DNA from: Paraspadella gotoi
Lineage: Eukaryota > Animalia > Chaetognatha
DNA length: 64,000 bases
Assembly: GCA_051294375.1 (NCBI GenBank)
Contig: CM119269.1
Location: forward strand, 6,709,552 to 6,773,551
Direction of reading: 5' to 3'
This document shows, piece after piece, positions 1 through 63,975 of this stretch; the stretch's first letter is position 1; each line of letters starts with the position of its first letter. Both the position numbers and the translations under genes were made by a program. Below the pieces are notes generated by a model. The model ran no database searches and had not been told where the DNA came from. It was given only the letters and a program-made list of their open reading frames with translations.

Positions 1-8268
<8,268 letters not shown>

Positions 8269-41700: not shown

Positions 41701-43796
41701 AGGGATGAGGTGGGTTGCTGCTGGGGAGGAGTATGGCTTGGCAGCGTGGTTGCGTGTTTTGCCTGAATGAGGTATCGTTTGTCGATCCCAAATTCTAATT
41801 TGCATGTTACAGTCATCAAAATTCAACGGAACGGGTATTTTATAAAAAAAAAAAAAAAAAAGGTAAAATTGAACATAGAATGTTAAGGAATTTGATGATG
41901 GTTTTTCTACTTTTCATCTTATGCCAATGCGAACGTAGGTTTTTCGGGCGGCATCGTTAAACTTCTACGTCAGCAAGTTTTAAAAAAAAAAGCACTGCCA
42001 TGAAACTTTACATTTTTGACAGCGACGCCTCCCAAGATGACGCCGCTGGATCTATGTCGCCGGAAATGGACGAAGCCGACCGGAGCCGTTTTAACGGCCT
42101 CGCTAAGGAGACGCCCCTATTTCTGCGACATTTGAGTATGTTTTTTCATTACCCTTCTCAGGCCCTGAGTTTACTAATCGTTTGTATTCTCATATATTTC
42201 CCTATTTTTTCATGCAACAATAGACGAAAAAAATGTATACTCCTGTGCAAAAAAAGAGGCCACTCTTAGGTCTTGAATTGTGCTCGTTTTATACATCTAT
42301 TATAAAATATATTAATGATAAATGTATATTTTTAAAAAAAGAATCCATACATAAGTCAAAAGGAAATCGGTCCAGCTATTCAGGTGCTATAGCGACCGGA
42401 AGACGAGTCGTTAAAAACAAAATGAAGATGTGCAAAAAAATCGAAGCCTGATTTTTACCTTATTTCTTATAAAAAAAAATTAAGAATGGCCAATGGGAAT
42501 TGTGGATTTTTGAAAAAGAAAGCCATGTATATAAGTTTTAAAAAAATCGGTTTAACCATGCTCTATCGCTCTGATTGAGTAGTTACTTTTCTTTGCAAAG
42601 TAAAATAGTTTTTATTGAGTTTCAACTTTCAACAACGATTATTATTTAAAATCGAAAGTTTTGTTTCTTAATTAAAAAATTAGGGAAAAAATTTGTCATT
42701 TGTAAAAGTAGTTACTTTTACAAAAAACATTGCTGTAAACGGATATCCAAATTTTCACCAATAGTTCTTTTTTCTATGAATATTATTCACCTATATCAAT
42801 GAAGGAATCTAACATGATTTATTTGCGTACTGTTGTAGGGTGGCCTCTTTTTCTTTGCACCGGACTGTATTACGTTATCATCAATTGTATTTTGAATCAA
42901 AACACTTACGCTATTCCTCCAGACGTCAGCCACAATAACGACGACAACGACGCCGACGACGACGAAGCCGACCTCAGCAAGCGCAGCCTCGACCATTTTC
43001 GCGCCAAATTGCAAAAGCTTCGCCCGGCGTCGCTCGGTTCCATCGCGCCACGCCCATCCACTTCGGTCGTCGGAGAGAGCTCCGGTGCCGTCGCTTCCAG
43101 GAAATCTGCGGTGACCTCCGCAGCTACTGCCGCTGCGGCTTGGGCTGCGGCGGCCGGTCATCCCAATCCTTCCATTCACAGCGTGTCGACGCAGTTGGCC
43201 GACATGTTGGAAGTCGATGAGCCCGACGCCGCCGACCCCCATTCCATTCACAATTATCAGCAGATGACGCAAGTCGTCAACGCTCAGTTTCCTAATCACT
43301 GCGTCTCCAAGTTTCCAGGTGATTTGTGAAATTGGTATCTCTCTCTCTTAATCTTGAAAGATTTGTGAAATTCGCATCTCTCTCTCTTAATCTTGAAAGA
43401 TTTGTGAAATTCGCATCTCTCTCTTAATCTTGAAAGATTTGTGAAATTCGCATCTCTCTCTCTTAATCTTGAAAGATTTTAAAACAAAAAAAAAACAAAA
43501 AAAAAACGACGAATTTTGACTTCTATCTTTACGCTAGTTTTTATTACCCACAGTTTTCCAGCTGCTTCCGTTCCTTACCTTTTTTCTTCCCCCCCCATTC
43601 CCGCAAATCAGGTCGACAAAAGACATGCAAGTGGTGCACCCGACTCCGGTCAACGACCAGGAGTGGGCGCCGCCCCGAGACCACCTACGGTTGCGCCATC
43701 TGTGGCCTCAATCTGCATCGCGATTATTGCTTCCTCGCCTATCATTATCACCTCGTCGTACCTCTGGCGGACAAAAAGCAACTCCCGCCGCCTTGA
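35795..43796 (+). CDS. Domesticated piggyBac-transposase-derived protein (PGBD-like), ~1315 aa, two Cys-rich domains
   Basis: 16 exons: 35795-36566, 36873-37090, 37252-37419, 37790-37954, 38279-38431, 38890-39054, 39322-39509, 39684-39881, 40011-40087, 40230-40517, 40602-40693, 40775-40946, 41112-41709, 42023-42135, 42923-43318, 43612-43796; 3948 nt with no internal stop. PiggyBac motifs occur in order: SPIEFFEKFI, VTKGEIMAFFGVLVL, LW, WEFCASDGFVKNF, IVGRTR, VFCYGIRIALQNSFTLW, ERLD..H, CxxC..CxxC.VYLH..CF..FH. Confidence 0.88.
43321..43478. repeat. ~39-bp tandem repeat, four copies
   Basis: gatttgtgaaattcgcatctctctctcttaatcttgaaa, starting just after the donor of the last intron of the piggyBac-derived gene. 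Confidence 0.95.
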
Positions 43797-44618: not shown

Positions 44619-47600
44619 ATGGCGTTCATTCTCGCTTTCCGCGATTGGATCGCGCCAGATGTTTGGATCGACGACGCGATCGACAGTAAATTATTTAACT
44701 TATTAATAAATGCTTAATTATTTATTAATTTTTGTTAACTATTTACTTATTACGTGTAATGTAATGCTAGTCTAACGACTCGACAATAAATTTTTTAAAA
44801 AACCTCAGAAACCAACGTGTATTGGGTTAAATTTCGATACAAAAACCAAACCAAGTTCGCAACAGCAACGTGAATTGTTTCCGCAGCAAGGAAGCACCCA
44901 AATGCTACTTCAAATTCCAAAATTATTTGGCCAAAACATTTTGATATAATGTTTGCCCGCTCGTCGCTGAGTTGTTTCACAGCCCAACCAGCTTATTGTG
45001 TTCCCCCATCCAAAAGAAATTCATTCTCCCGCTGCCCAAGATGATTCCGCCGCGTCTGAAGCGTAAGATTTCTCCGCTGCGAACCTTACCTCAGCTATGC
45101 CCAGAAAATCCTGGGCCTGACCCAACTCGGTCGGGCACGTGTTGGGCTCGTGATCGGGAAAGAATCCAGAGCGCGAACCTCGATCGACTCGCGAGGGGCC
45201 GCGGGACTCGTCGGCACCTGCGGCGGCGCGGGGGTCGTCGAAGGCGACGTGGAAGCACGTCCTGACGGGCCGTTGTGGGTCCGAGTCCCACTGCTTGAAG
45301 AGGAGCACCTCATCTTTGCGCATGCGCGGGAAATAGTGCCACGAGTGGGCGTCGCTGTTCTTCTCGTTGAGCATGAAAAACTTTTCTGTGAATTCCAAGT
45401 TGTAGTCAGGGTCGTGACCGTGATAGTTGCTCTCCAAGTAATCCTGAAAAAGGTATGACGTTTGATCTAACTGGTGATGTGAATGGCTGCAAAAGTCACA
45501 AAGAGTTTGTGAGTTGGAAATAGTGTGAGGGTAATAGAGAGAGTGAAGGGAAGTTGGAAGCTCAACAAAAACGTTTTCATTCTTATATAAATATAAATTA
45601 TTTCAGGATAATTGTTGTTTTAAAAAGGTTATCAGTTCTCCATTTTCAGTATTTGATCAATCATCACCCACAGCCATCGATCATTCACCTCCGAACCGAC
45701 TCCGGGCGTCAACGACTTCCCATCGAGGACCGCTAGGTGGTTCCTCTCCAGCGGCTTCTCGCTGATGTTCCTCCAGGCGTTGATGTAGAGGAACCTGCCT
45801 CGACGAAATCGCTCGTCGAGTCCTCCGCTGAGATAAGCGAAGAGAGCGAGGGCGCCTTCTTCGTGAACGTCGGTGTGGATCCCGCGGGCGTAGTCTGTGT
45901 TGAAGGGAAGTTTGCGAAACAGTGCCGCAAACGTTATTGACGATTATGATCACAAATCGAATCACCCCCTAAAAATATCACTCATACAAGTGGAAAAAAA
46001 ATAAATATTTTAAAATGTGACTTTAACGATGTCAAGGAGATACGATCAACTTTCTCTATGTCCCAATTGTCCCATACCTTCGTAAGGACTGGCCTTGGAC
46101 ACCGGATCGAACTTGTTCCGATTCCTAACTTTGTGGTCGAAACACTTGACTACCTCCGCTCCTGTGTACCGCTTGACGCACTCCTCGATCTCTTTGTAGT
46201 ATTCGGTCACGATCCTCGAAGGGTCGGAGTAGAAGTCTTCCGTCTTGAAGGAAGTGTCGAAATCTACCAACTCGAATGAATGATCGTCCAGTGTGGCCCT
46301 GGTCGAGCGGGCGTCTTTCACCGTCACTTCCTAGAGAAAGATGATTCATGATAAGTAGATAAGTCTCTCTCTCTCTTTCTCTCTTTCTCTCTTTCTCTCT
46401 TTCTCTCTTTCTCTCTTTCTCTCTTTCTCTCTCTCTCTACCTTAGCTTTCATTAAGCCGGCGTTAAACTCCGTCGCGCGCCCCTCTTTTCTCAAATGGAA
46501 CGGAGCCTTTCCTTCTCCCGCTGCGTAGTGAAGAGATGTTTTCACGTCGTTTGGCGCCATTTTATTTGTTATAGATGGAATTGGTACAATCGAAATAACA
46601 AAAGACGCCGTTCTATATTCAAAAAGCGTTTCGTCAAAATTTGGGGATAAAATGTTTTCGTCCTACATAAAATCCAAAAGAATATTCCACGATTATTTTT
46701 AACGCGCAAAAAATAAAAGAAATCCACCCTTTTTTTTTCGTTCAACCGGTTCAGGTTATTAGGGGCAGTGACCCGTTTTTAGCCCGATACAGATAATTTT
46801 CAGTCGGTCCGGTTATTTGGTTTGGCTGTCTCTTTTTGACGGTTGTTCATTGAACAATTGGCAAAGTGAGAAGGTGGAAATTTTGGTTTCGATTTTGTGG
46901 TTGTTGTTGAAAAACAGAGCAAAAACGAAGGAATAATTTCTTGATACGATTAAAACAATAAAAACGGAGAGAGAAGGCCCAAAACGTCTCTGAAACTGGG
47001 TAGAAAAGTCGGCTGGAACGAATCAGTAAAAGATAGAGGGATAGAGAGCGAGAGCCTCCTTTACATACGAATATTGCTTAATGCTTACACATGAATGCAA
47101 GCTATTATTTCTGCAAGTAGTCATAAAAATTAGGCAAAACAAGCAATTTATTATTCCTTTGGCATAGAGGAAGTGATACATAAGAAGTCTGCGTAATGTA
47201 TGTTGTATTATTTTCGTTCAAGATTTATTCGTAATAGTCTTCCAACCTCGTTAAATCTTTCTGCGCAGTTAAGTCAATAATATTTTTAAGAATGGATTTT
47301 TGTGGAATCTAAAAGAGCATAAAAGTACCGTTTGAAGTAGTTGTATTTTTAAGAAACGCATCACACTCCTCAAAAGACTAAGTTTACACACACTACTACT
47401 TTGTCCTAACCTAAGTTTTAATATAGTATTGTTCTTACGTCTCAGGCTGAACAGAAAATCAACTGTTCTTATGCTGCACATCTGCCTCATCCCTATGCTG
47501 ACGAAGCAGTTCATGGGAGACTCCATCCAGTGCTTCACCCCGACTCACTTCACTGGTAGATACCTGAATTCAGTCTTAACAATTAAAGTATCAGCCTAAG

Positions 47601-48973
47601 ATCTCTGAAGTCGATTTCCGGGACCAATGATAAAGATTAAGTCAACTTTCTCTTTTGAATATCATTCGGTTTGAAAGTGAAGCTTTGACCAATTATTACT
47701 CAAAAAAAACAAAAAAACCCCACAATCACTCAATCAGCCCACAAGATTTAACGAAGCCAACTACTTTCTCTCCACACCCGCACCACAGGCCCACAGACCG
47801 ACTACGCCCACAGCTTCTGCTGGACGACTTCGACCTACCGTCTCCTCGGAGTCGACGGTTCTCTTCTCTCCATCCCTCAAACTTATCAAGTTCGAGGGCG
47901 GGAATTTAACTTACCCCGAGGCCAAGGTTCGTTTCTTTTAGGTTGAGATGGCGTCTTTTCCATTTGTCTGTTGTTTTCGTTTTTTTTTTTTTTTTTTTAA
48001 TTATTTCATTATTTTAATTTTATAATTTTATCATTCTTTGTTGTCTATAAAATGTCGATTTGACCCGTTCGACATAATCATCAAACTTTATTCATAGTCA
48101 AGTACTTGAGGCTGACAAATTGCATGTTATAATATGTAATACCATGTAATAAAATGTAAGAACGTGCGAGAACGGACCAATCGGACGTTATCCCGTCCCG
48201 TCGCAGGGAATTCCGCATCCAATGAGGACGCGGAAAAGGTCTTCATCTCTTACTATCAATGGGCGCCGATGATCTTAGCTCTGCAGGTAGTTGTTGTTGT
48301 TGTTGTCATCGTTTTTGTCTGAGTTTAATCGCCCTTCGCCTTAAGGCCGTCTTCTTTCACTTACCTTTCGTTCTCTGGCATTACCTGACCATCGCCAGCG
48401 GACTTCAAGTCAAACTGGTCATAAAAGGTGATTGGATTTAATTTATTTATGATTGGCTGAACTTTTTTTTTCCGCTCATAGCGTCCCTTTCTCCTCCAGG
48501 TGCCAAAGAACTCGCCAACACCCACGAGTGCAGAGAGAAGAAGTTGGGTCTTGCGTTCGACATCGTAGAGCAAATCAAGAACTTCCTCACTCACCACGCA
48601 CCTCGATCCCAGTGAGAGAGATCGGGTTCTTCGTTTTCTTCTGGCTGCACAAAGTGTACATTGTGCAAATGCAGAATTTGCGAAGAGAAATCTTTCTTCA
48701 ACTCACCTTTCTTTTTTGACAGGCGCTTTCCTCCGCCGAAACAAAAGGCGAGCGCAATAAAAAGAAAATATTTTGGAAAAAAGAGAGGAAACTTTTTGTT
48801 CGTTCTGTATATTTTTGTCAAGGTTCGTTATGGATTCGAACTTGTAATATATTGCGGAAGATCTGAAGGGTCATCCTAATATTCTTTGCATCGGCAACAC
48901 TATTTTCAAAACTAATGTGACGGTATATTCACACCGCCTCACGTCCCTTTGGCTTTGCTTCGTCTCACTTCCG

Positions 48974-49049
<76 letters not shown>

Positions 49050-49832
49050 CTTAAAACAGGTTTAAATCCCTTTTCAACCACACCCCTTCCACCCCCAACT
49101 CCCAAGTGCCTCTACCTCTTCAACATCCTCGTCCAACTCTTCGCCCTCAAGTCGATCTTCGACGGTCACCGCGACTACGAGTTCTTCCTCACGGATGGAG
49201 GGTCGTCTACGAACTCGTCGTCCTCCGCCGATGGATCCAATCCAAGGCCTTTCCCTTGAAGACCATTTGCCAAGTCTCCGGTCGGTATAGGAGATGAGAA
49301 AGGGGGCGGTACAGACGAGAAAATGTAACGTTGAGGGTGCCTGTAAAAAAGGGATCATTTGAGCTCGGGAGCGTTCCGAGAGAAAACAATTGTTCTGGGG
49401 TGCTTTTCTAAAAAGTAAAGAATGTATTAATCATTCCACCTTCTTAATTCTTCATCATCTTTCCCACCAAACTAATTCCAGTCCATCACCAAGGCAACCG
49501 CCTTCCCTACAGCGTCGAGTGCGTCCTCCCACTCAATCTTTACAACGATAAAATCTTCGCCGCCTTCACAATCTTCTTCCCTCTCCTCGGCCTCCTCCTC
49601 ATCCTCTCCGCCTTTCGGTGGATTCGACGGAACGCTCCGCACCGCCGAGCCGCCTTCGTGCAGAAGCATCTCCTCACCTTCAGGAAGATTCAGGGTAGGA
49701 TTTATCTTCTCTTTTCTGTGGCGGAAAAGTTCTGTCTAATAACTTATGTTGTTTGAAATGATTGAATAATTTATTGGTGATTTCTCCCCTCTCTCTTTTT
49801 AACGCTCTTTTTTTTACCTTCTCTCCCCAGGC

Positions 49833-49925
<93 letters not shown>

Positions 49926-51125
49926 CCTCTCCTCTCTCTCTCTCATCTCTCTCCTCTCTCCAAATGCCTCCCGGAATCCGCCACACCCTCATCCAACCCC
50001 CAATTCCCTCTTCAAACCGCAGACGGACGCGACCGCGAGGTGTTCCGCCACTTCGTCGCCCACTACCTCCGTCGAGACGGCGTCTTCCTCCTCCAACTCA
50101 TCGACGAGAATGTCGGGGGCCTCGCGGTGGCGCACCTCGTCGCCGGGCTTTGGGACGACTACCACGGCAGGTTGTAGCCGTTGATAAGGTTCATCTTTAT
50201 CAGTCGTCAGTGGGTACAAAAAAAAAGAGAACGATGAAACAAGAACATTAGATAAATCATTTTTTAAAAAATATATTGTAGAATAATTTTTAAATAAACG
50301 ACGTCTACTGCATGAAGAATTTAGTCTTGACGGCCCCACCCTCCCAATGTCTCTCATCCGACAGGCTGAGTCGATGCGCCAAACTGGAAGGCTTTTCGTT
50401 GGAGGACGAGATCCCGAAGCAGCGCGTCATCGACTGCGTCACGGAATCCCTCGCTACCTCCATTCCGATTGTGGACAAAGGCGAATCTGAGAAAAGCGTG
50501 GATTGTGAAGTGAAGAAGGGTGAGGGGTTTGAGAGGGGAGCGGGGAGCGGGGAGCGGGGGAGATAACTGAGAGAGTGAGAGAGTCAGAGAAAGTTAGAAT
50601 AGAGTGAAGAGTTTCTCACAATTGTTTTGAACTTCACGATAAGTTCGCATTTTACAATACGTAAATGAGATTAAAGGGGAAAAAGATTATAAATCGAAGA
50701 AAGGTAAAAGAGAAAGGTTGATAAAGAAATAAAGAGAGGTATTGATAGTCAAAAAAATGTTAGAAAAAGAGCCGATAAGAAAGGAGAAAGACCGAGAGAG
50801 AAAATGGGAGAGAAAAAATAACGAACGTAAAAGAGAAAGAAAGAAGAGAGGAAGCAACAACAATGAATTGTTGTTTTAATCTTCAGATCGTCAGGAAGCG
50901 AAGGACGAGGCTCCGCCGATCCCTCCGCCACCGATCCATGTCGATCCTGGGAGTACGTGAACATTGAATCCTAATGCGCTAAAACGTTTATTTCATTTTC
51001 AAATAAACTAATTTATTAAATCGAAATTTTATTCTAACTCTACAACAGCGCCACCCTTCGCCTCCAAGAGTGCCTTTCATTTTCATGGAGTCAAGATTGA
51101 TAAAGTAAGTCAAATCTTCTTTTTT

Positions 51126-53145: not shown

Positions 53146-56100
53146 ATGGCATTTTTTTACCCTTCCGACTTGGCCAAAGCCTTTGGCGAGCAGCCCCACC
53201 TCGACGACGGCTGCGACCGCGCCCACCGTTTCTACATGCCGCTCATCCTGGTCCTGGCCTGCTCCGTTTTGGGACTCAAGCAATTTGCCGGAGATCCCAT
53301 CCACGTACGAGAGGGGCAAAGGGGAGAGAGCCTTGCGGTTTTGATATTTGCCGACTGCTTCGCGCGTGCTTTTTATCGCTTTGAAACTTAGTTTTTTATC
53401 GCGTTTTGCTATGCTATGCTTTGCATTTTTGTTTCTTTATTAAAAAAAATCTAATTTTTAATTTTTATGGGGTTTATATTTTTTCTGATTAATAAAATAA
53501 ACGATAATAACAGAATTAAAAAAACAGTAACGGTATCAATAACATCGCTTTCTAATCTAACAGGCATCTAACAGCATCGCTGCTCGCATCCGATTATTGT
53601 CAAGAATTTATTCAACTAATTTTGAATTGCTTTCTCCTTCATCGCCGCTGTTTTCACTCAAGATGACGCTTGTATCGTTCACTCGAGTTGATTTTATGAA
53701 ATTACTACCTCGCGTCATTTGAATATTTGCATCGCTTTCCCCCGCAGTGCTACACGGGATCCAACCTGAACCCTTCCCAAATCGACTACGTTAAAAACTA
53801 CTGCTGGACGGCGTCGACTTATCAAATCCTAGACACGGATTACGACACGTTTAGACTCCCGCAAGGGACCGACCATCTGCTTGAAGGTAAGGACTCCCAC
53901 TGTCGCATTGGATGAGCGATGTTTCGTTTCCAAATGATAAATTGAAGGATGGTTGAAACTGCGTCTCAGTTATAATTTGATCGACTTTAGTCGAATAATA
54001 ATAACATCAATTATAATAATAATTATAATATTTTTAATTTTCCTCTCCAGACGTCCGACGCGAGCCTAAAGATTCCATTCTCCTTGGCAAGAAGGTTTAC
54101 GTTTCTTACTACCAGTGGGTCCCCGTGCTGCTCGCCATTCAAGCCCTGCTCTTCCACTTTCCTTATCTCATCTGGTACACTTTCGTCGTCAGAGGAGCTA
54201 TTCATCTTCCGCATCTCATGAACGGTAGTGGAGACTCAAGAAATTATCTACGATTTGTTTCTTGAACTCATCCTTTGCCCAAATCCAGTTCGACCCCATT
54301 TCGCGTAAAACTTACTTTTTTGTTTTCTTTCCTGTGCCCACCCCCGTTCGCCAGGCGCTTATCTCCTCGCCAAAGTCCAGTCCAACCCCATCGCGCGCCG
54401 CACGGCTCTCGACGACGCCGCCTACATCCTAGATGCTCACTTCCGGGACAACGCCGGTGACACAGAGTCCGCGACGCCGGATTGGCGCCAGCGACTTCGC
54501 GGCGCCGGGCACTTTGCTCTCTTCGTCATCGTCAAACTCTGCTACATCGGCAACGTTGTCTTCCAACTCTTCTGCATCCACTCATTTCTCCAGCTCAACA
54601 TTCTCGCCTACTCGGCCGACGTGGTCAGGACTCTCTTCTTCGGTCACACTTGGCTCACCTCTGCCAGATTTCCCATCAGAACCCTCTGCGAGTTTCGAGG
54701 ATTGCCGCAGGCGAGTACGGGGAATGGGGCACAATAGTTTATCAAATATTTTTTCTTTATAATAAATAATTTGCTTGGAGCGGCACCAACGATATGCATT
54801 AGACATTATTAGTAGCTTCGATGGCGAAAAAATTATATTCAAGTTTGAATGGTCTATTAAATTCATTTACATATTGCAGCACCGAATCGGTTCATTATTA
54901 AAGATAACATACTCTATTGCTTTGCGATCAAATGGAGAAATTACGGGTACGATTGAAAACAGCTATCCCGAAAATTTTAATTAAAGTGAAGGATTTTTTT
55001 TGCCACAGGGTTTATTTTCTATTTTTATTATACAACCGATGGTGGGACAGATTATTGTTTGGCACAAAAGGATGTTTTAAATTAAGGCGGGCTCAGAAAT
55101 AATTTTTTGAAAAATATTAAAACTGTTTGTTATTAACAAAAAAAATAACAAATAGGAATAAAGGAATAATTGAAAGAATATAGTATAAGAAGCATAACTT
55201 TTCCCTCTTGAGGTATAGCCTTGTTTTAGATATACATAATTTCCTTTCTCTACTTATCGCAGTCGCATTAAGAATTTTAGTTTTTAGGTCAACTTGAGGA
55301 CAAAAAAACAAACCAATTTTTTACGATCCATCTCCGCATTGCTATTTCCAGATCCACGGATACCTCTTGCCCCATACTTGCCACTGCGTTCTCCCTATCA
55401 ACCTCTACAACGACAAGCTCTTCGCCGGCCTCGTCTTCCTCATGACCTTCATGCTCGCCGCCTCTTGTCTCAACCTCGTCCTCTGGCTGTTCCTCGTCTT
55501 TGGAGCAACGAGGAGATCGTTGATTCGGTGCCTCGTCGCGGAGAGGAACGGAGACTCGGTTAAGAGGTGGGATGGGGGAAAGAAAAGAAAGAATGGGGGA
55601 AAGGTGAAAGAATTAAAGAAAAAGGATAGAAGATGAAGAATATTTAGGAAAAAAAAAATATTGAAATAGAACGTGAAAAAGGATGGAAGACGGTACAATT
55701 TCCGCATCAATAATGCGGAAACAAACATTTAAACTTAAAAAAACTAATAATTTCAAAAATTAAAAATCCTCGTTGGCCTTGCGTGATAATAGAACCAAGT
55801 TATCATACCGTTCCACCTCGTCTCTCTCTNNNNNNNNNNCTCTCTCTCTTTCAGATTCGTGGATCACTACCTGCGCACGGACGGTCTTTTCATCCTCCAC
55901 CTCATCGACCAGAACGTTGGCCGCAACACGGCCAAAGAGATCGTCAACGCCCTCTACAGGAAGTACCGCAATGTCACGGACTCGGACTGCCCCTCGGCCT
56001 ACGAGAGCTGCCCGCGCGACGACACGGTCTTCGAGGCTGCAGACCTCCGCTCCGTGCTCCGCTGCTTCAGCTGCGACCGGCCGTGGGACGAGCGAGACGA

Positions 56101-56149
56101 GGGACGACCGTGCGAAAAGTGCAAGAACATTCTAAAGTCACAAGCATGA
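53146..56149 (+). CDS. inx: Innexin B (6 exons, Cys-rich tail)
   Basis: Exons 53146-53304, 53748-53886, 54051-54224, 54355-54710 (GC donor), 55352-55566, 55855-56149. Motifs LDDGCDR, KQFAGDPIHC, NYCW, SYYQWVP, RFPIRTLCEF, CVLPINLYNDK, YLRTDGLFILHLI. Confidence 0.94.
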
Positions 56150-57010
56150 TTCTTTTTTTCTTGTATTTTTTTATACATGTAACAATTAAGAGAGAATATG
56201 GTAAAAATTCCAAAGACACCGAACACACACTACGCTGTAATGCCCAAAATCGAAGTGCATTAGACAGGAAACCGTAATAGGGTACAGTATTCTATTTGTA
56301 AACCCTTTTTGATTAATGATCCGTGATTAATCATTCTTTTAATGCGTCGTTACAATGATGACTTCTGAAAAAAAAAATTGCATAGTGCAAAAAAAAAAAA
56401 ACAGAAAAAAAACAACAAAAAAACAAGAAGGACGCTGAAAAAAAAAAGAACTGCTGAGTAGTATAAATGTGAAAAGAGGTGTGTTTGTTTTAAAACTTGT
56501 CTCTGTGTCGCTTATTTGGGAGACTATAGTTTGGGCAAAAAAAGAGAAAATGAAAATTTTAAATTTCAGGTTGCGCAAAATATTGCGTTCGATTCATTAA
56601 TGAGAAAAATGAATCGAAACGTTGAGCATTTTGAGCAATTAAAAAAAATAGTTACACACATAAAACAGAACACACTTAAAACAGAAATCTTATATGAGCG
56701 TTCCTCACCCTAACATTTTTTAACGTATATGACGCTATAACTTGATAAATGCTGCAAAAAGAACGAGCATAGAAGGTACATTTTAAGCTGAACCGGTCAT
56801 ACATACGAGAAAAAACAGTCAGTCAGACAATCACAGCCAGGTTAATTCTTGAAACTGGGATAATTGGAAAAATGTTGTTAATAAGGTTGTTATTAACTTG
56901 TTAATAAGTTTCTACACCCATGGAGATATTAGGTTGGAGGAAAGGAGAAAAGTAACAAAATCGGAAAAAAAACTAGAAAACATCAAAATATCAAAAACAA
57001 AACGTTAGTC

Positions 57011-59064
57011 TCATTCTTCTTCCATCAACGCCCACGCTTCTTCTGCCTTCATGTAAAACTTGTTGGCCAATCGACCCTTCATTGCTGCGACGGCCGCTTC
57101 GGCAGCTTCGTTGTAAAGTTCTCCTGCTGTGGAAGGGTCTGCCTCAAGGCCAAAACCGCCCGTCGTCAGCATCGCCGCTTGACGACTTAGCAAATCGTAG
57201 AGGGGGATGTCGGCAGTGCCGTCGAACTGACCACCTGTTTCGGCAAAGGAGTTAAAAAAAAAAATTCAAATACATATAGATATTTTTAGACAGCATTGTA
57301 TATACTAATAAAAAGTTTCGGGGATACGAAAATCAGTCCCGTTCATCCACTAACCTTCATCGCATTCTTCCATCTCGACCGCTTTCCGAAGCCACCGCAA
57401 AGCTTCGGGCCAAGATCGTTCCCGCTTGGTACCAAGGCCGCTTCCGGTTTCGAAGGCCACGCCCACATGAATCATAGCCGGGCGGTCGCCGGCCGACGCC
57501 GCTTGTTGCATCAAATCGAAGCCGCGATCCTCTTTGTTCGCTCCTGCGCACGAGCAGAAAAAAGTATTAACCTTCTACTGAAAACAAAAATAACACTTCC
57601 TTTTTGCAACATTGAACATTAATCCTGTTGATTTTCTGTCTTGAGTCGTTAATAAAAACATTATCAGGACTATTTACTTTTAGTTCAAATAACAATCTTA
57701 TTTTTCAATTCCGGCCACGCAGTCTCGCGTCTCTTTCTTTCTCTCTTCATTTTTATTTATTCTTTCGAACTTTGAACCTTTGACTTCTCGGGTAACGACA
57801 GACGAGAGCGAATCGCGAGATCTTTGAATCAATTCGAGACTTTATTTAGATACCTCACTCGAGAGCCAATATTAGTTTATTTTTTATATATTTTTATGCC
57901 GGTCCCTCGAGGATGATATCAATATTCACTTGCAAAAAACCGTTTTTAAATTCCTACAATGGTTTCCGAGATATAGTCATAAACGTCAGCCTTGAAAGGC
58001 AAAATTTGTCAGAATAAAATTTTCGAGTTTCTTCTTAGATTTGAAAAAGGAAAGACTAAATTACATTTTGATTACCATTAAATTTTCTCTACTCTATAAA
58101 TTTGCTTGTATTTTATAGTTAAAGTAAAAAACAAGCAAAAATTTATGAAGTAGCTGGATAAAATGTTTTTTTAAATATGAAAAATGATAAATACAAAAAT
58201 ATTTTCAGATTGATATAAACAGTCTGGACATCTACCTTCTTGTCTGTGAAAAAAAAATTGTCATTTTCCATTATCTTCAACTGCAAACAAAAAGCTTGAC
58301 ACGCTGCTTGTTTATCATAATAAAATTTAAAAAAATTACATAGCTGGTGACATATTTGACAAAGCAAGACATCATTGTGTTTATTTGTATTGATAATTTT
58401 CTTTTAAATATAACAACCTTTATACAAGGAATTTAATTCTATTACTTATCATCCGTTTAAATTAAGAAAAAAAATTTTGCGGAATAGCCCATTGGAAAGG
58501 GTTCATTGACTGACTTAATGATCGAATTTTTTAGGTTTCTTTACTGCCCCCCTTTCACAAGACATAAAAGGTCATGATTATCATGTCAGTATGTCCATAT
58601 TATCTGTACCCTTTATGCAACCTGCATTCTGAATTTTCTTTTTTTCCCTTTCAAATGTATTAAATAAAAAAAATTATTTGAGAGAACGATTGGCGTGGAG
58701 GATGCCATTGGTAAGCCTTAGTTACCCCACTTCCCGATCGAATTTTTAAACGAGGTTTTTTTTCCATCTATTCGAGACATAACACTAACTATTGGTACTA
58801 TTAATTTTTTATTTTTTTCATGAAATTTTGCGTAATCAGAGAAACGTTTAGCGTGTCAAAAAAATATGGAAAAAAAAGAGAAAAACGTTCTGACAAATTT
58901 AAAAATTTATGGAGGAATCTACTTTATTTATTGCAAGAGAGAAAGAAATAAGGAGAGAGAAGAAAGAGGGAGAAGAAAGAGAAAAAGAGAGAGAATTTCA
59001 CCTGTTCTTTTATCTAACAAAATTTTTCATTTTTTTTTTNNNNNNNNNNNNNNNNNNNNNNNNN

Positions 59065-59113
<49 letters not shown>

Positions 59114-62100
59114 AGGAAAATGACACGGCGGAAAAAAAAAATGAAAAATTTTGTTAGATAAAGAACAGGTGAAATTCTCTCTCTTTTTCTCTTTCTTCTC
59201 CCTCTTTCTTCTCTCTCCTTATTTCTTTCTCTCTTGCAATAAATAAAGTAGATTCCTCCATAAATTTTTAAATTTGTCAGAACGTTTTTCTCTTTTTTTT
59301 CCATATTTTTTTGACACGCTAAACGTTTCTCTGATTACGCAAAATTTCATGAAAAAAATAAAAAATTAATAGTACCAATAGTTAGTGTTATGTCTCGAAT
59401 AGATGGAAAAAAAACCTCGTTTAAAAATTCGATCGGGAAGTGGGGTAACTAAGGCTTACCAATGGCATCCTCCACGCCAATCGTTCTCTCAAATAATTTT
59501 TTTTATTTAATACATTTGAAAGGGAAAAAAAGAAAATTCAGAATGCAGGTTGCATAAAGGGTACAGATAATATGGACATACTGACATGATAATCATGACC
59601 TTTTATGTCTTGTGAAAGGGGGCAGTAAAGAAACCTAAAAAATTCGATCATTAAGTCAGTCAATGAACCCTTTCCAATGGGCTATTCCGCAAAATTTTTT
59701 TCTTAATTTAAACGGATGATAAGTAATAGAATTAAATTCCTTGTATAAAGGTTGTTATATTTAAAAGAAAATTATCAATACAAATAAACACAATGATGTC
59801 TTGCTTTGTCAAATATGTCACCAGCTATGTAATTTTTTAAATTTTATTATGATAAACAAGCAGCGTGTCAAGCTTTTTGTTTGCAGTTGAAGATAATGGA
59901 AAATGACAATTTTTTTTTCACAGACAAGAAGGTAGATGTCCAGACTGTTTATATCAATCTGAAAATATTTTTGTATTTATCATTTTTCATATTTAAAAAA
60001 ACATTTTATCCAGCTACTTCATAAATTTTTGCTTGTTTTTTACTTTAACTATAAAATACAAGCAAATTTATAGAGTAGAGAAAATTTAATGGTAATCAAA
60101 ATGTAATTTAGTCTTTCCTTTTTCAAATCTAAGAAGAAACTCGAAAATTTTATTCTGACAAATTTTGCCTTTCAAGGCTGACGTTTATGACTATATCTCG
60201 GAAACCATTGTAGGAATTTAAAAACGGTTTTTTGCAAGTGAATATTGATATCATCCTCGAGGACCGGCATAAAAATATATAAAAAAATAAACTAATATTG
60301 GCTCTCGAGTGAGGTATCTAAATAAAGTCTCGAATTGATTCAAAGATCTCGCGATTCGCTCTCGTCTGTCGTTACCCGAGAAGTCAAAGGTTCAAAGTTC
60401 GAAAGAATAAATAAAAATGAAGAGAGAAAGAAAGAGACGCGAGACTGCGTGGCCGAATTGAAAAATAAGATTGTTATTTGAACTAAAAGTAAATAGTCCT
60501 GATAATGTTTTTATTAACGACTCAAGACAGAAAATCAACAGGATTAATGTTCAATGTTGCAAAAAGGAAGTGTTATTTTTGTTTTCAGTAGAAGGTTAAT
60601 ACTTTTTTCTGCTCGTGCGCAGGAGCGAACAAAGAGGATCGCGGCTTCGATTTGATGCAACAAGCGGCGTCGGCCGGCGACCGCCCGGCTATGATTCATG
60701 TGGGCGTGGCCTTCGAAACCGGAAGCGGCCTTGGTACCAAGCGGGAACGATCTTGGCCCGAAGCTTTGCGGTGGCTTCGGAAAGCGGTCGAGATGGAAGA
60801 ATGCGATGAAGGTTAGTGGATGAACGGGACTGATTTTCGTATCCCCGAAACTTTTTATTAGTATATACAATGCTGTCTAAAAATATCTATATGTATTTGA
60901 ATTTTTTTTTTTAACTCCTTTGCCGAAACAGGTGGTCAGTTCGACGGCACTGCCGACATCCCCCTCTACGATTTGCTAAGTCGTCAAGCGGCGATGCTGA
61001 CGACGGGCGGTTTTGGCCTTGAGGCAGACCCTCCACAGCAGGAGAACTTTACAACGAAGCTGCCGAAGCGGCCGTCGCAGCAATGAAGGGTCGATTGGCC
61101 AACAAGTTTTACATGAAGGCAGAAGAAGCGTGGGCGTTGATGGAAGAAGAATGAGACTAACGTTTTGTTTTGATATTTTGATGTTTTCTAGTTTTTTTTC
61201 CGATTTTGTTACTTTTCTCCTTTCCTCCAACCTAATATCTCCATGGGTGTAGAAACTTATTAACAAGTTAATAACAACCTTATTAACAACATTTTTCCAA
61301 TTATCCCAGTTTCAAGAATTAACCTGGCTGTGATTGTCTGACTGACTGTTTTTTCTCGTATGTATGACCGGTTCAGCTTAAAATGTACCTTTCTATGCTC
61401 GTTCTTTTTGCAGCATTTATCAAGTTATAGCGTCATATACGTTAAAAAATGTTAGGGTGAGGAACGCTCATATAAGATTTCTGTTTTAAGTGTGTTCTGT
61501 TTTATGTGTGTAACTATTTTTTTTAATTGCTCAAAATGCTCAACGTTTCGATTCATTTTTCTCATTAATGAATCGAACGCAATATTTTGCGCAACCTGAA
61601 ATTTAAAATTTTCATTTTCTCTTTTTTGCCCAAACTATAGTCTCCCAAATAAGCGACACAGAGACAAGTTTTAAAACAAACACACCTCTTTTCACATTTA
61701 TACTACTCAGCAGTTCTTTTTTTTTTCAGCGTCCTTCTTGTTTTTTTGTTGTTTTTTTCTGTTTTTTTTTTTGCACTATGCAATTTTTTTTTTTCAGAAG
61801 TCATCATTGTAACGACGCATTAAAAGAATGATTAATCACGGATCATTAATCAAAAAGGGTTTACAAATAGAATACTGTACCCTATTACGGTTTCCTGTCT
61901 AATGCACTTCGATTTTGGGCATTACAGCGTAGTGTGTGTTCGGTGTCTTTGGAATTTTTACCATATTCTCTCTTAATTGTTACATGTATAAAAAAATACA
62001 AGAAAAAAAGAATCATGCTTGTGACTTTAGAATGTTCTTGCACTTTTCGCACGGTCGTCCCTCGTCTCGCTCGTCCCACGGCCGGTCGCAGCTGAAGCAG

Positions 62101-62308
62101 CGGAGCACGGAGCGGAGGTCTGCAGCCTCGAAGACCGTGTCGTCGCGCGGGCAGCTCTCGTAGGCCGAGGGCAGTCCGAGTCCGTGACATTGCGGTACTT
62201 CCTGTAGAGGGCGTTGACGATCTCTTTGGCCGTGTTGCGGCCAACGTTCTGGTCGATGAGGTGGAGGATGAAAAGACCGTCCGTGCGCAGGTAGTGATCC
62301 ACGAATCT

Positions 62309-62347
<39 letters not shown>

Positions 62348-63975
62348 GAGGTGGAACGGTATGATAACTTGGTTCTATTATCACGCAAGGCCAACGAGGA
62401 TTTTTAATTTTTGAAATTATTAGTTTTTTTAAGTTTAAATGTTTGTTTCCGCATTATTGATGCGGAAATTGTACCGTCTTCCATCCTTTTTCACGTTCTA
62501 TTTCAATATTTTTTTTTTCCTAAATATTCTTCATCTTCTATCCTTTTTCTTTAATTCTTTCACCTTTCCCCCATTCTTTCTTTTCTTTCCCCCATCCCAC
62601 CTCTTAACCGAGTCTCCGTTCCTCTCCGCGACGAGGCACCGAATCAACGATCTCCTCGTTGCTCCAAAGACGAGGAACAGCCAGAGGACGAGGTTGAGAC
62701 AAGAGGCGGCGAGCATGAAGGTCATGAGGAAGACGAGGCCGGCGAAGAGCTTGTCGTTGTAGAGGTTGATAGGGAGAACGCAGTGGCAAGTATGGGGCAA
62801 GAGGTATCCGTGGATCTGGAAATAGCAATGCGGAGATGGATCGTAAAAAATTGGTTTGTTTTTTTGTCCTCAAGTTGACCTAAAAACTAAAATTCTTAAT
62901 GCGACTGCGATAAGTAGAGAAAGGAAATTATGTATATCTAAAACAAGGCTATACCTCAAGAGGGAAAAGTTATGCTTCTTATACTATATTCTTTCAATTA
63001 TTCCTTTATTCCTATTTGTTATTTTTTTTGTTAATAACAAACAGTTTTAATATTTTTCAAAAATTATTTCTGAGCCCGCCTTAATTTAAAACATCCTTTT
63101 GTGCCAAACAATAATCTGTCCCACCATCGTTGTATAATAAAAATAGAAAATAAACCCTGTGGCAAAAAAAATCCTTCACTTTAATTAAAATTTTCGGGAT
63201 AGCTGTTTTCAATCGTACCCGTAATTTCTCCATTTGATCGCAAAGCAATAGAGTATGTTATCTTTAATAATGAACCGATTCGGTGCTGCAATATGTAAAT
63301 GAATTTAATAGACTCTCCCATCTTCCCTTTACCTTCCAAAAACTGCTCGATTGCCCCGTCGGGTATTTCGTTATTGACAACATCGCAAGAGAGGCCGAGG
63401 AGGATCTTGGCGAGGGCGACGATGGAGACGAGTTGGAGACACTGGGTCGACTTCTCCAGGTGGAAGAGAATAGCGCTGAAGTCGACGTCCTCCCGCCCAG
63501 TCTGTTCGCTGAGGGGAAGGGAGTGGATGATAAATTCTTTCTAAATTGTTTAAAAATTGTTGAGGCAGATTTTCAATCTTTGATAAGATTGACGATTCGT
63601 GACTCATGCGATTATAATTTAAGAAAATACAAGGTTTCTAAGCCGGTTTCGAAAATCAACGAACACGGGCCTCTCTACGCTTTTTTTTTTATCGTTTTGA
63701 AACCTTTTTACGACTTTTTATAGGTCATTGTGCCCTGCTTCATTCCGGATCTTCGAATCCAAAAAAGTTTCAATAATAAAGAGTCGTGACAGGAGCTCCT
63801 CTTCAGCTTTGAGCACTCCCGCCCAAAGAAGACTTACTTGAATCTGCCTTGGTCATGGTATTTGGCCAGATCCAGATGAATGTCACCCAACACAGACTCG
63901 TAGGCTTTTTTCTCCGTTTTCTGACAGAGGTCGTTGAGAAGAGTGGCCTCCACGGCGACGGAGCTGCATCGATGA
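57011..63975 (-). CDS. EEF2K: Eukaryotic elongation factor 2 kinase, C-terminal helical-repeat exons (5' part beyond the window)
   Basis: Exons 63975-63838 (SVLGDIHLDLAKYHDQGRF), 63508-63333 (ILFHLEK), 57543-57355 (GFDLMQQAASAGDRPAMI), 57234-57011 (AGELYNEAAEAAVAAMKGRLANKFYMKAEEAWALMEEE*). These match the eEF2K C-terminus and the phases join. Confidence 0.93.
60622..61155 (+). pseudogene. Duplicated last two eEF2K exons (inverted copy, frameshifted; probably an artefact)
   Basis: Copy of 57011-57543 with a 1-nt deletion near 61030 and no upstream exons on +. Confidence 0.6.
62013..62816 (-). pseudogene. Duplicated innexin B exons 5-6 (inverted copy; probably an artefact)
   Basis: Copy of 55352-56149 with a 1-nt deletion near 62170 and no 5' exons. 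Confidence 0.6.

What the first reader, a model, noticed from the sequence alone, without database searches (positions are those of the whole stretch)
44619..47555. Antisense dioxygenase gene nested inside the first intron of an innexin
Seen: the innexin N-terminus (MAFILAF..IDDAID, parallel to innexin B MAFFY..LDDGCD) is at 44619-44686, and its continuation (RLNRKSTV..KQFMGDSIQC) is at 47446. The whole 4-exon AsaB/CmcJ-like gene lies between them on the opposite strand. Innexin B has no intron at this position. Inference: the insertion coincides with a paralog-specific intron; transcriptional interference or co-regulation is possible.
Basis: partly seen in the sequence, partly recalled or inferred. 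Interest (0 to 1): 0.72.

Follow-up and report, generated by a model that had tools for sequence, protein, structure and literature searches.

The report
Dioxygenase gene nested inside innexin intron
A spliced four-exon gene for a predicted iron/2-oxoglutarate dioxygenase lies on the opposite strand inside what is very likely the first intron of a gap-junction (innexin) gene of an invertebrate; this is a common gene arrangement, and the more curious point is that the enzyme's named relatives are all from marine protists, so it may have been gained by horizontal transfer.

Summary
The nesting is real, and ordinary in kind. As assembled, the window has no in-frame donor at 44686, but 3 of 3 DNA runs laid read a canonical GT there. 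44619-44686 is by far the best match in the window to the N-terminus of innexin A's closest relative (score 64, next 26). A 1554-nt contig of an RNA-like run splices the four-exon minus-strand gene and spans 46893-44804, inside the 2759-nt intron. The same run splices innexin exons 3-8, but the 44686-47446 joint itself was not seen. The inner gene is an intact CmcJ/NvfI-family dioxygenase; its window frameshifts vanish in the runs. The 'paralog-specific intron' argument is weak: A and B are 31% identical and share 1 of A's first 7 introns, and no insertion footprint was found. Nested genes are about 10% of Drosophila genes. Named relatives of the enzyme are all protists, but descent from a choanoflagellate-like ancestor is not rejected.

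The parts
44619..44686 (+). Innexin A first coding exon (22 codons plus 2 nt of the Arg23 codon)
   Evidence: best match in the window to the N-terminus of the closest relative; not covered by RNA contigs
44687..47445 (+). Innexin A intron 1, 2759 nt, phase 2; donor GT in the DNA runs (the window reads TA), acceptor TCTCAG
   Evidence: junction inferred, not seen in RNA
46441..46893 (-). Dioxygenase exon 1: 333-nt or longer 5' UTR, ATG at 46560
   Evidence: X9 contig letters 1-453
46078..46330 (-). Dioxygenase exon 2
   Evidence: X9 contig; NF041278 positions 36-109, E 8.6e-14
45689..45894 (-). Dioxygenase exon 3, carries H131-x-D133 and YINAWR
   Evidence: joints CT..AC on both sides in X9; NF041278 116-177
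44804..45443 (-). Dioxygenase exon 4: H258, RESIEVR, stop near 44977, 3' UTR to at least 44804; four single-base indels in the window against all four runs
46894..47445 (-). 552 nt between the inner contig's 5' end and the innexin acceptor; likely holds the inner gene's promoter
   Evidence: inference
47446..47555 (+). Innexin A exon 2
   Evidence: Pfam Innexin E 3.7e-6; no RNA cover
47789..48822 (+). Innexin A exons 3-7 (47789-47926, 48207-48286, 48346-48427, 48500-48611, 48723-48822)
   Evidence: X9 joints GT..AG and loose ends; open frame from exon 1 through exon 7, 230 aa
49107..50177 (+). Innexin A exons 8-10 (49107-~49280, 49482-49694, 50023-50177); exon 8 changes frame near 49196 in the window
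   Evidence: X9 loose end into 49107; Pfam Innexin on exons 9 and 10
53146..56149 (+). Innexin B, six exons, tandem paralog used as comparator

Best explanation
A spliced four-exon gene on the minus strand, predicted to encode an Fe(II)/2-oxoglutarate dioxygenase of the CmcJ/NvfI family, lies inside what is very likely the 2759-nt first intron of a plus-strand innexin, and the two likely work as independent transcription units. Shown: the inner RNA's exons and its span 46893-44804; splicing of innexin exons 3-8; the canonical in-frame donor in DNA runs; the His-Asp-His iron triad. Inferred: innexin exon 1 is spliced to exon 2 over the whole inner gene. The inner gene starts from its own promoter in the right-hand 552 nt of the intron, runs toward the innexin's exon 1 and ends about 120 nt short of the donor. 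Because it is antisense, its splice and poly(A) signals are not read in the innexin pre-mRNA, which is why the arrangement is tolerated. Inferred history: one copy of a small dioxygenase family (at least two further copies in the same runs) was duplicated at DNA level into an intron that already existed, with no selected regulatory link. Inferred enzyme action: Fe(II) held by H131/D133/H258 splits O2, turning 2-oxoglutarate to succinate and CO2 while it hydroxylates or desaturates an unknown small molecule. It is likely cytosolic, since it lacks the hydrophobic ends of its nearest relatives.
For: Donor: 3 of 3 DNA runs laid. Exon 1 match 64 versus 26 and 13. Open 230-aa frame over exons 1-7. 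Inner contig 1554 nt equals the modelled length exactly; CT..AC intron ends put it on the minus strand and GT..AG ends put the innexin on plus. NF041278 hits on three exons in model order. Triad invariant in 103 of 103 aligned sequences. A model of the nearest relative P0091 (47% identical) matches NvfI at E 2e-22 and CTB9 at E 2e-21. Other contigs with family motifs and different flanks in all four runs (tables 7-8). Only 1 of 7 A introns shared with B. No repeat footprint. Literature passages: 71% of Drosophila nested genes are antisense, their expression is no more correlated with the host than random pairs, and most arose by insertion into introns (PMC3814207); nested structures are about 10% of Drosophila genes (PMC13343718).
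Against: The exon 1-exon 2 joint has no RNA cover. Contigs cannot show true RNA ends or strand, so the inner RNA could reach further: a minus-strand AATAAA at 44726 would end it near 44705, and read-through could overlap exon 1. The order of events is untested: none of 80 related loci held an innexin, no genome of this window is held, and no paper on innexin intron positions was found. Even without the inner transcript, intron 1 (669 nt) is A's longest. The run X9 is only guessed to be RNA, although it lacks the introns.
Confidence: 0.7

Rival explanations
1. The dioxygenase insertion created intron 1: a block carrying the gene landed in the innexin's D-R codon and is spliced out.
For: The inner transcript fills 2090 of 2759 nt. 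Innexin B lacks the intron. The junction is AG|G, a proto-splice context. An earlier unchecked note reports transposon-born introns elsewhere in this genome.
Against: Five other A introns among the first seven are also absent from B. No direct or inverted repeat of 9 nt or more between the flanks; 6 direct 8-mers against 6.1 expected from shuffles. Ordinary splice signals, and a CTAAC branch-like word upstream of the acceptor (sequence).
Confidence: 0.12
2. The arrangement is kept as a regulatory switch: convergent transcription of the dioxygenase toward the innexin's exon 1 blocks the innexin in cells that express the enzyme.
For: Convergent geometry, with the inner contig ending 117 nt from the donor. 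Interference is a recognised effect in nested pairs (passages of PMC3814207, PMC13343718).
Against: Geometry alone; no cell-level data. In Drosophila, host and nested genes behave like random pairs (PMC3814207), which is read as avoidance of interference rather than use of it.
Confidence: 0.12
3. The gene is not nested: innexin A uses another first exon between 46893 and 47445, and 44619-44686 is a remnant.
For: The window itself lacks the in-frame donor. No RNA covers exons 1-2.
Against: The runs restore the donor. 44619 is the best of 52,836 positions for an innexin N-terminus. The 7 ATG..GT phase-2 candidates with a fair donor inside the intron (of 30) give 4-17 unrelated residues.
Confidence: 0.04
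4. On the enzyme's origin, separately from the nesting: it was inherited from a single-celled holozoan ancestor and lost in most animals, rather than gained from a marine protist.
For: A choanoflagellate homolog exists (Acanthoeca, P0037). Holding it with the nested clade is not rejected (p-AU 0.098). The backbone of the eukaryote-type clade is unresolved. Most relatives are unnamed and some may be animal.
Against: All 7 relatives with an organism name among the 123 compared are protists of five lineages. None is named as an animal. The family is patchy, a pattern more usual for transfer (own knowledge).
Confidence: 0.4

Closest known systems
Nested (intronic) protein-coding genes of Drosophila and mammals (PMC3814207 passages; PMC13343718 passages)
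   Same: Whole spliced gene inside one long intron of a host, on the opposite strand, member of a duplicated family; brain-enriched hosts are common in that set.
   Different: The host is an innexin and the guest is a protist-type enzyme. I found no such pair in print. The guest fills 76% of the intron.
CmcJ/NvfI family oxidoreductases (NCBIfam NF041278; NvfI PDB 7DE2/7EMZ, CTB9 PDB 7EUS; PMC8292354 passages)
   Same: Three exons hit the model in order; His-x-Asp...His triad and RESIEVR motif kept; the nearest relative folds like NvfI and CTB9.
   Different: Known members tailor fungal or bacterial secondary metabolites inside biosynthetic clusters. This one is an intron-bearing animal gene with no cluster around it, P0091 is about 22% identical to NvfI, and the substrate is unknown.
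cmcJ of the springtail Folsomia candida beta-lactam cluster (PMC5490193, one passage)
   Same: A CmcJ-named gene in an animal genome.
   Different: There it sits with IPNS, ACVS and cmcI. Here it sits alone in an innexin intron and groups with marine eukaryote sequences, not with the long high-GC contig clade. The two sequences were not compared.
Tandem innexin clusters (for example three crab innexins on one chromosome; bioRxiv 10.64898/2026.08.12.744261 passages)
   Same: Multi-exon innexin paralogs near each other.
   Different: No nested gene is mentioned there (0 occurrences of 'nested').

Membership tests
Nested intronic gene | Inner transcript lies wholly between two consecutive host exons | tested here: met
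   Contig span 46893-44804 within 44687-47445; true RNA ends are not shown by contigs
Nested intronic gene | The flanking host exons are spliced together | tested here: inconclusive
   Canonical in-frame sites in DNA runs and strong homology, but no RNA cover of the joint
Nested intronic gene | Inner gene is a separate, spliced transcription unit | tested here: met
   Own three introns removed, CT..AC ends on plus, so minus strand
CmcJ/NvfI family (NF041278) | Score above the curated cut-off of 80 bits | tested here: met
   Exons scanned singly give 51.7, 31.0 and 65.4 bits on separate model segments, each below 80 alone, rough sum 148. The joined protein was not scanned. Four of its nearest relatives score 187-204.
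Fe(II)/2-oxoglutarate dioxygenases | His-x-Asp...His iron triad | tested here: met
   H131, D133, H258, invariant in 103 of 103 rows; the columns align with NvfI and CTB9
Fe(II)/2-oxoglutarate dioxygenases | Double-stranded beta-helix fold of the NvfI type | tested here: met
   By proxy: model of P0091 (47% identical to the nested protein), pLDDT 92.9, matches NvfI at target TM 0.86; the nested protein itself was not folded
Fe(II)/2-oxoglutarate dioxygenases | 2-oxoglutarate- and O2-dependent turnover of a substrate | not testable with these tools
   needs an assay
Innexin (PF00876) | Pfam domain, YYQW motif and loop cysteines | tested here: met
   3 of 5 A pieces scanned hit PF00876 above cut-off; motifs in the alignment
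Horizontally acquired animal gene | Integrated in the animal genome, with spliceosomal introns | tested here: met
   DNA contigs run from innexin exon 1 into the gene and from the gene into exon 2; three GT-AG introns
Horizontally acquired animal gene | Phylogeny rejects vertical descent | tested here: inconclusive
   Grouping with the long-contig (prokaryote-like) clade is rejected (p-AU 0.012) and with the three dinoflagellates (0.034); grouping with the choanoflagellate is not (0.098) (quick tree)
Transposon-born intron (introner) | Target-site duplication or terminal inverted repeats at the intron or insert ends | tested here: not met
   None of 9 nt or more; 8-mers at chance level; an old event could have lost them

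The most novel reading that the evidence does not exclude
This animal (likely an arrow worm) took a CmcJ/NvfI natural-product dioxygenase from a marine protist and expanded it into a small family. One copy then landed in a gap-junction gene, creating or colonising its first intron, and its convergent transcription now sets which cells make that innexin.
Probability: 0.07. Interest if true: 0.7.

Novelty: new member of a known kind. Interest (0 to 1): 0.3.

Why it matters
As a nested gene it is one more case of the commonest kind of gene overlap in animals. It matters mainly for annotation: the window's errors hide the innexin's first exon and frameshift the enzyme, so automatic models would get both wrong. 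The lead worth keeping is the enzyme. An expressed, multi-copy CmcJ/NvfI dioxygenase family with protist-type relatives would point to unrecognised small-molecule chemistry, and possibly to eukaryote-to-animal gene transfer, in this lineage. The chaetognath genome paper's main text has no occurrence of innexin, nested or dioxygenase. If orthologs exist with and without the guest, the locus would be a clean test of whether a gene insertion can found an intron.

Tried and rejected
No whole genome is held for this window, so paralogs and other innexins could not be mapped. No holder was on record as RNA; X9 is a guess and has no cover over innexin exons 1-2, which is no evidence either way. An alternative in-frame join in the uncorrected window (GT at 44686 to the AG before 47427, adding six residues) became unnecessary once the runs showed GT at 44687. 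Pfam gave no family above cut-off for the four inner exons and none for P0091; the family call rests on NCBIfam, PDB sequence hits and the fold. A suspected degenerate C-terminal extension in other frames got no support from tblastn. The metagenome scan gave 80 loci, none with an innexin, so conservation of the nesting is untested. Paper searches for an innexin hosting a nested gene, for nested horizontally transferred genes, for innexin intron positions and for CmcJ transfer into animals gave no direct precedent in the listings; most subscription papers are not in the library. The top ten innexin relatives looked up carried no useful organism name except one Trichinella record, so the taxon was not established here. 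The Atlas hit had a low recognition value and is a lead only.

Full report
Observation. Exons 2, 9 and 10 hit Pfam Innexin above cut-off; exon 1 (22 aa) and exon 3 gave no hit. In the window as assembled, however, the join is not a proper splice: the only GT at the end of exon 1 (44686) is phase 1, and the acceptor at 47445 needs phase 2. I laid 4 of the 9 runs that hold the stretch: three DNA runs from 3 samples and 2 studies, and the one run guessed to be RNA. All three DNA runs read G,T at 44687-44688 at full depth. This gives AG|GTAATT and an open 230-aa frame over exons 1-7. The window's letters are a consensus error or a private allele; one of these runs may be the source of the assembly. 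As a chance control I ranked innexin relatives on exons 2 onward only. The best (P0331 and its cluster mate P0175, 39-40% identical) begins MSYILDF..IDDSLD. Its 22 N-terminal residues score 64 at 44619, 26 at innexin B's start, and at most 13 on the plus strand within the intron, among 52,836 open positions. No RNA contig covers exons 1-2, so the joint remains inferred. Run X9 does splice exons 3-4-5-6 (GT..AG joints) and runs on into exons 7 and 8 by loose ends.

The inner gene. Four minus-strand exons with GT-AG introns of 110, 183 and 245 nt. One 1554-nt X9 contig covers all four, skips introns 2 and 3 with CT..AC ends, runs from exon 2 into exon 1, and spans 46893 to 44804. The modelled transcript with the run differences is exactly 1554 nt. 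It lies 117 nt from the innexin donor and 552 nt from the acceptor. The window frameshifts exon 4, but all four runs show the same four indels, which give 348 aa. Exons 2, 3 and 4 hit NCBIfam NF041278 (CmcJ/NvfI) at 51.7, 31.0 and 65.4 bits on consecutive model segments; exon 1 had no hit. H131, D133 and H258 are invariant in 103 of 103 rows; 21 of 123 relatives with under 240 aligned residues were dropped. A profile of 85 relatives finds only CTB9 and NvfI in the PDB at E up to 0.01. A model of the closest relative P0091 matches NvfI at E 2e-22. The NvfI paper describes an iron triad at residues 135, 137 and 250 (PMC8292354, passages). The nested protein lacks the hydrophobic C-terminal segment of its six closest relatives and the N-terminal extension seen in the four of them that are complete at that end. 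Short family-motif matches with different flanks in all four runs show at least two further copies, with matching contigs also in X9.

Is the intron tied to the insertion? Innexin B lacks it, as stated. But A and B are 31% identical (115 of 376). Of A's first seven introns only one (phase 1, before helix GA-K/Y) is shared with B. A's other introns are 59-327 nt and B's are 130-644 nt; intron 1 minus the inner transcript is 669 nt. No direct or inverted repeat of 9 nt or more links the flanks, and direct 8-mers are at chance level (6 against 6.1). The contrast with B therefore says little. The age of the intron could not be tested: no genome is held, none of 80 related loci carries an innexin, and the paper searches gave nothing on innexin intron positions.

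How it likely works. Two transcription units, convergent. The innexin pre-mRNA reads through the inner gene on the other strand and removes it with intron 1. The dioxygenase starts in the right part of the intron and ends shortly before the donor (candidate signals AATACA at 44823 and AATAAA at 44726 on the minus strand). Antisense orientation hides the guest's splice sites from the host. In Drosophila 71% of nested genes are antisense, most arose by insertion into introns, and host-guest expression is no more correlated than for random pairs (PMC3814207, passages). Nested structures make up about 10% of Drosophila and 5% of mammalian genes (PMC13343718, passages). Polymerase interference is possible where both are active, but nothing here shows it.

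Origin of the enzyme. Of 1632 relatives of P0001 at E up to 1e-20, the best 120 were listed. The seven with organism names are dinoflagellates (3), a choanoflagellate, an ochrophyte, a diatom and a green alga, at 39-47% identity to the nested protein. In trees of 70 rows (29 of 71 usable locus ORFs, 40 proteins and the nested one) and 30 rows, the nested protein groups with six unnamed proteins (99/96). That group sits inside a eukaryote-type clade separated from the long-contig clade at 100/100, with no resolved donor. AU tests on a quick tree reject joining it to the long-contig clade (p 0.012) or to the three dinoflagellates (p 0.034), but not to the choanoflagellate (p 0.098). I put transfer from a protist at about 0.55-0.6 and ancient inheritance with losses at about 0.4. 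A cmcJ gene is already reported in a springtail's beta-lactam cluster (PMC5490193, one passage).

Organism. A two-finger GATA gene and the innexins mark an animal. Earlier unchecked notes call this genome an arrow worm; I did not establish this. The chaetognath genome paper has no occurrence of innexin, nested, gap junction or dioxygenase in its main text (PMC12460157, term search), and none of innexin, asaB or CmcJ in the 3 supplementary files held. Other supplements, not held, could list these genes. An unchecked note reports 14 antisense genes nested in a tubulin gene of the same genome, so nesting may be common here.

Verdict. The arrangement is a new member of a well-known kind; the intron-gain and co-regulation ideas are unproven. 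Interest 0.3, mostly for the protist-type enzyme family.

Noticed in passing
window 54852-59039 and 59132-63313: A 4.2-kb inverted duplication, 99.2% identical, centred on the N gap at 59040-59064. It repeats the 3' exons of innexin B and Sel1-repeat exons; likely an assembly artefact.
   Followed up: no
window 44687-44688, 44960, 45073-45074, 45088, 45165, 45203: The window differs from all covering runs at these places: local consensus errors that break a splice donor and a reading frame.
   Followed up: yes
window 49107-49280: Innexin A exon 8 changes frame near 49196; outside the stretches laid, likely another assembly indel.
   Followed up: no
window 55855-56149: Innexin B's C-tail ends in a CxxC...CxxC motif. 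Relatives P0007 and P0174 have both pairs and P0173 has two CxxC words; possibly a zinc-binding tail.
   Followed up: partly
window 54708-54713: Innexin B intron 4 appears to use a GC donor (CAG|GCGAGT), judged from the sequence and the P0007 alignment.
   Followed up: no
window 45131-45311 (runs X1, X4, X5, X9): At least two further dioxygenase copies in the same runs, with matching contigs also in the RNA-like run.
   Followed up: partly
P0091, P0078, P0082, P0090, P0103, P0125: The six closest relatives end in a hydrophobic tail, and the four complete ones start with a signal-like segment: a predicted membrane-anchored form of this enzyme family.
   Followed up: partly
window 4299-6243: Two-finger GATA transcription factor gene.
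   Followed up: no
window 43321-43479: Tandem repeat of about 39 nt in an intron-like stretch of the upstream gene.
   Followed up: no
window 48270: Run X4 carries a 4-nt insertion in innexin A exon 4 that X1, X5 and X9 lack; a possible frameshift allele in that sample.
   Followed up: no
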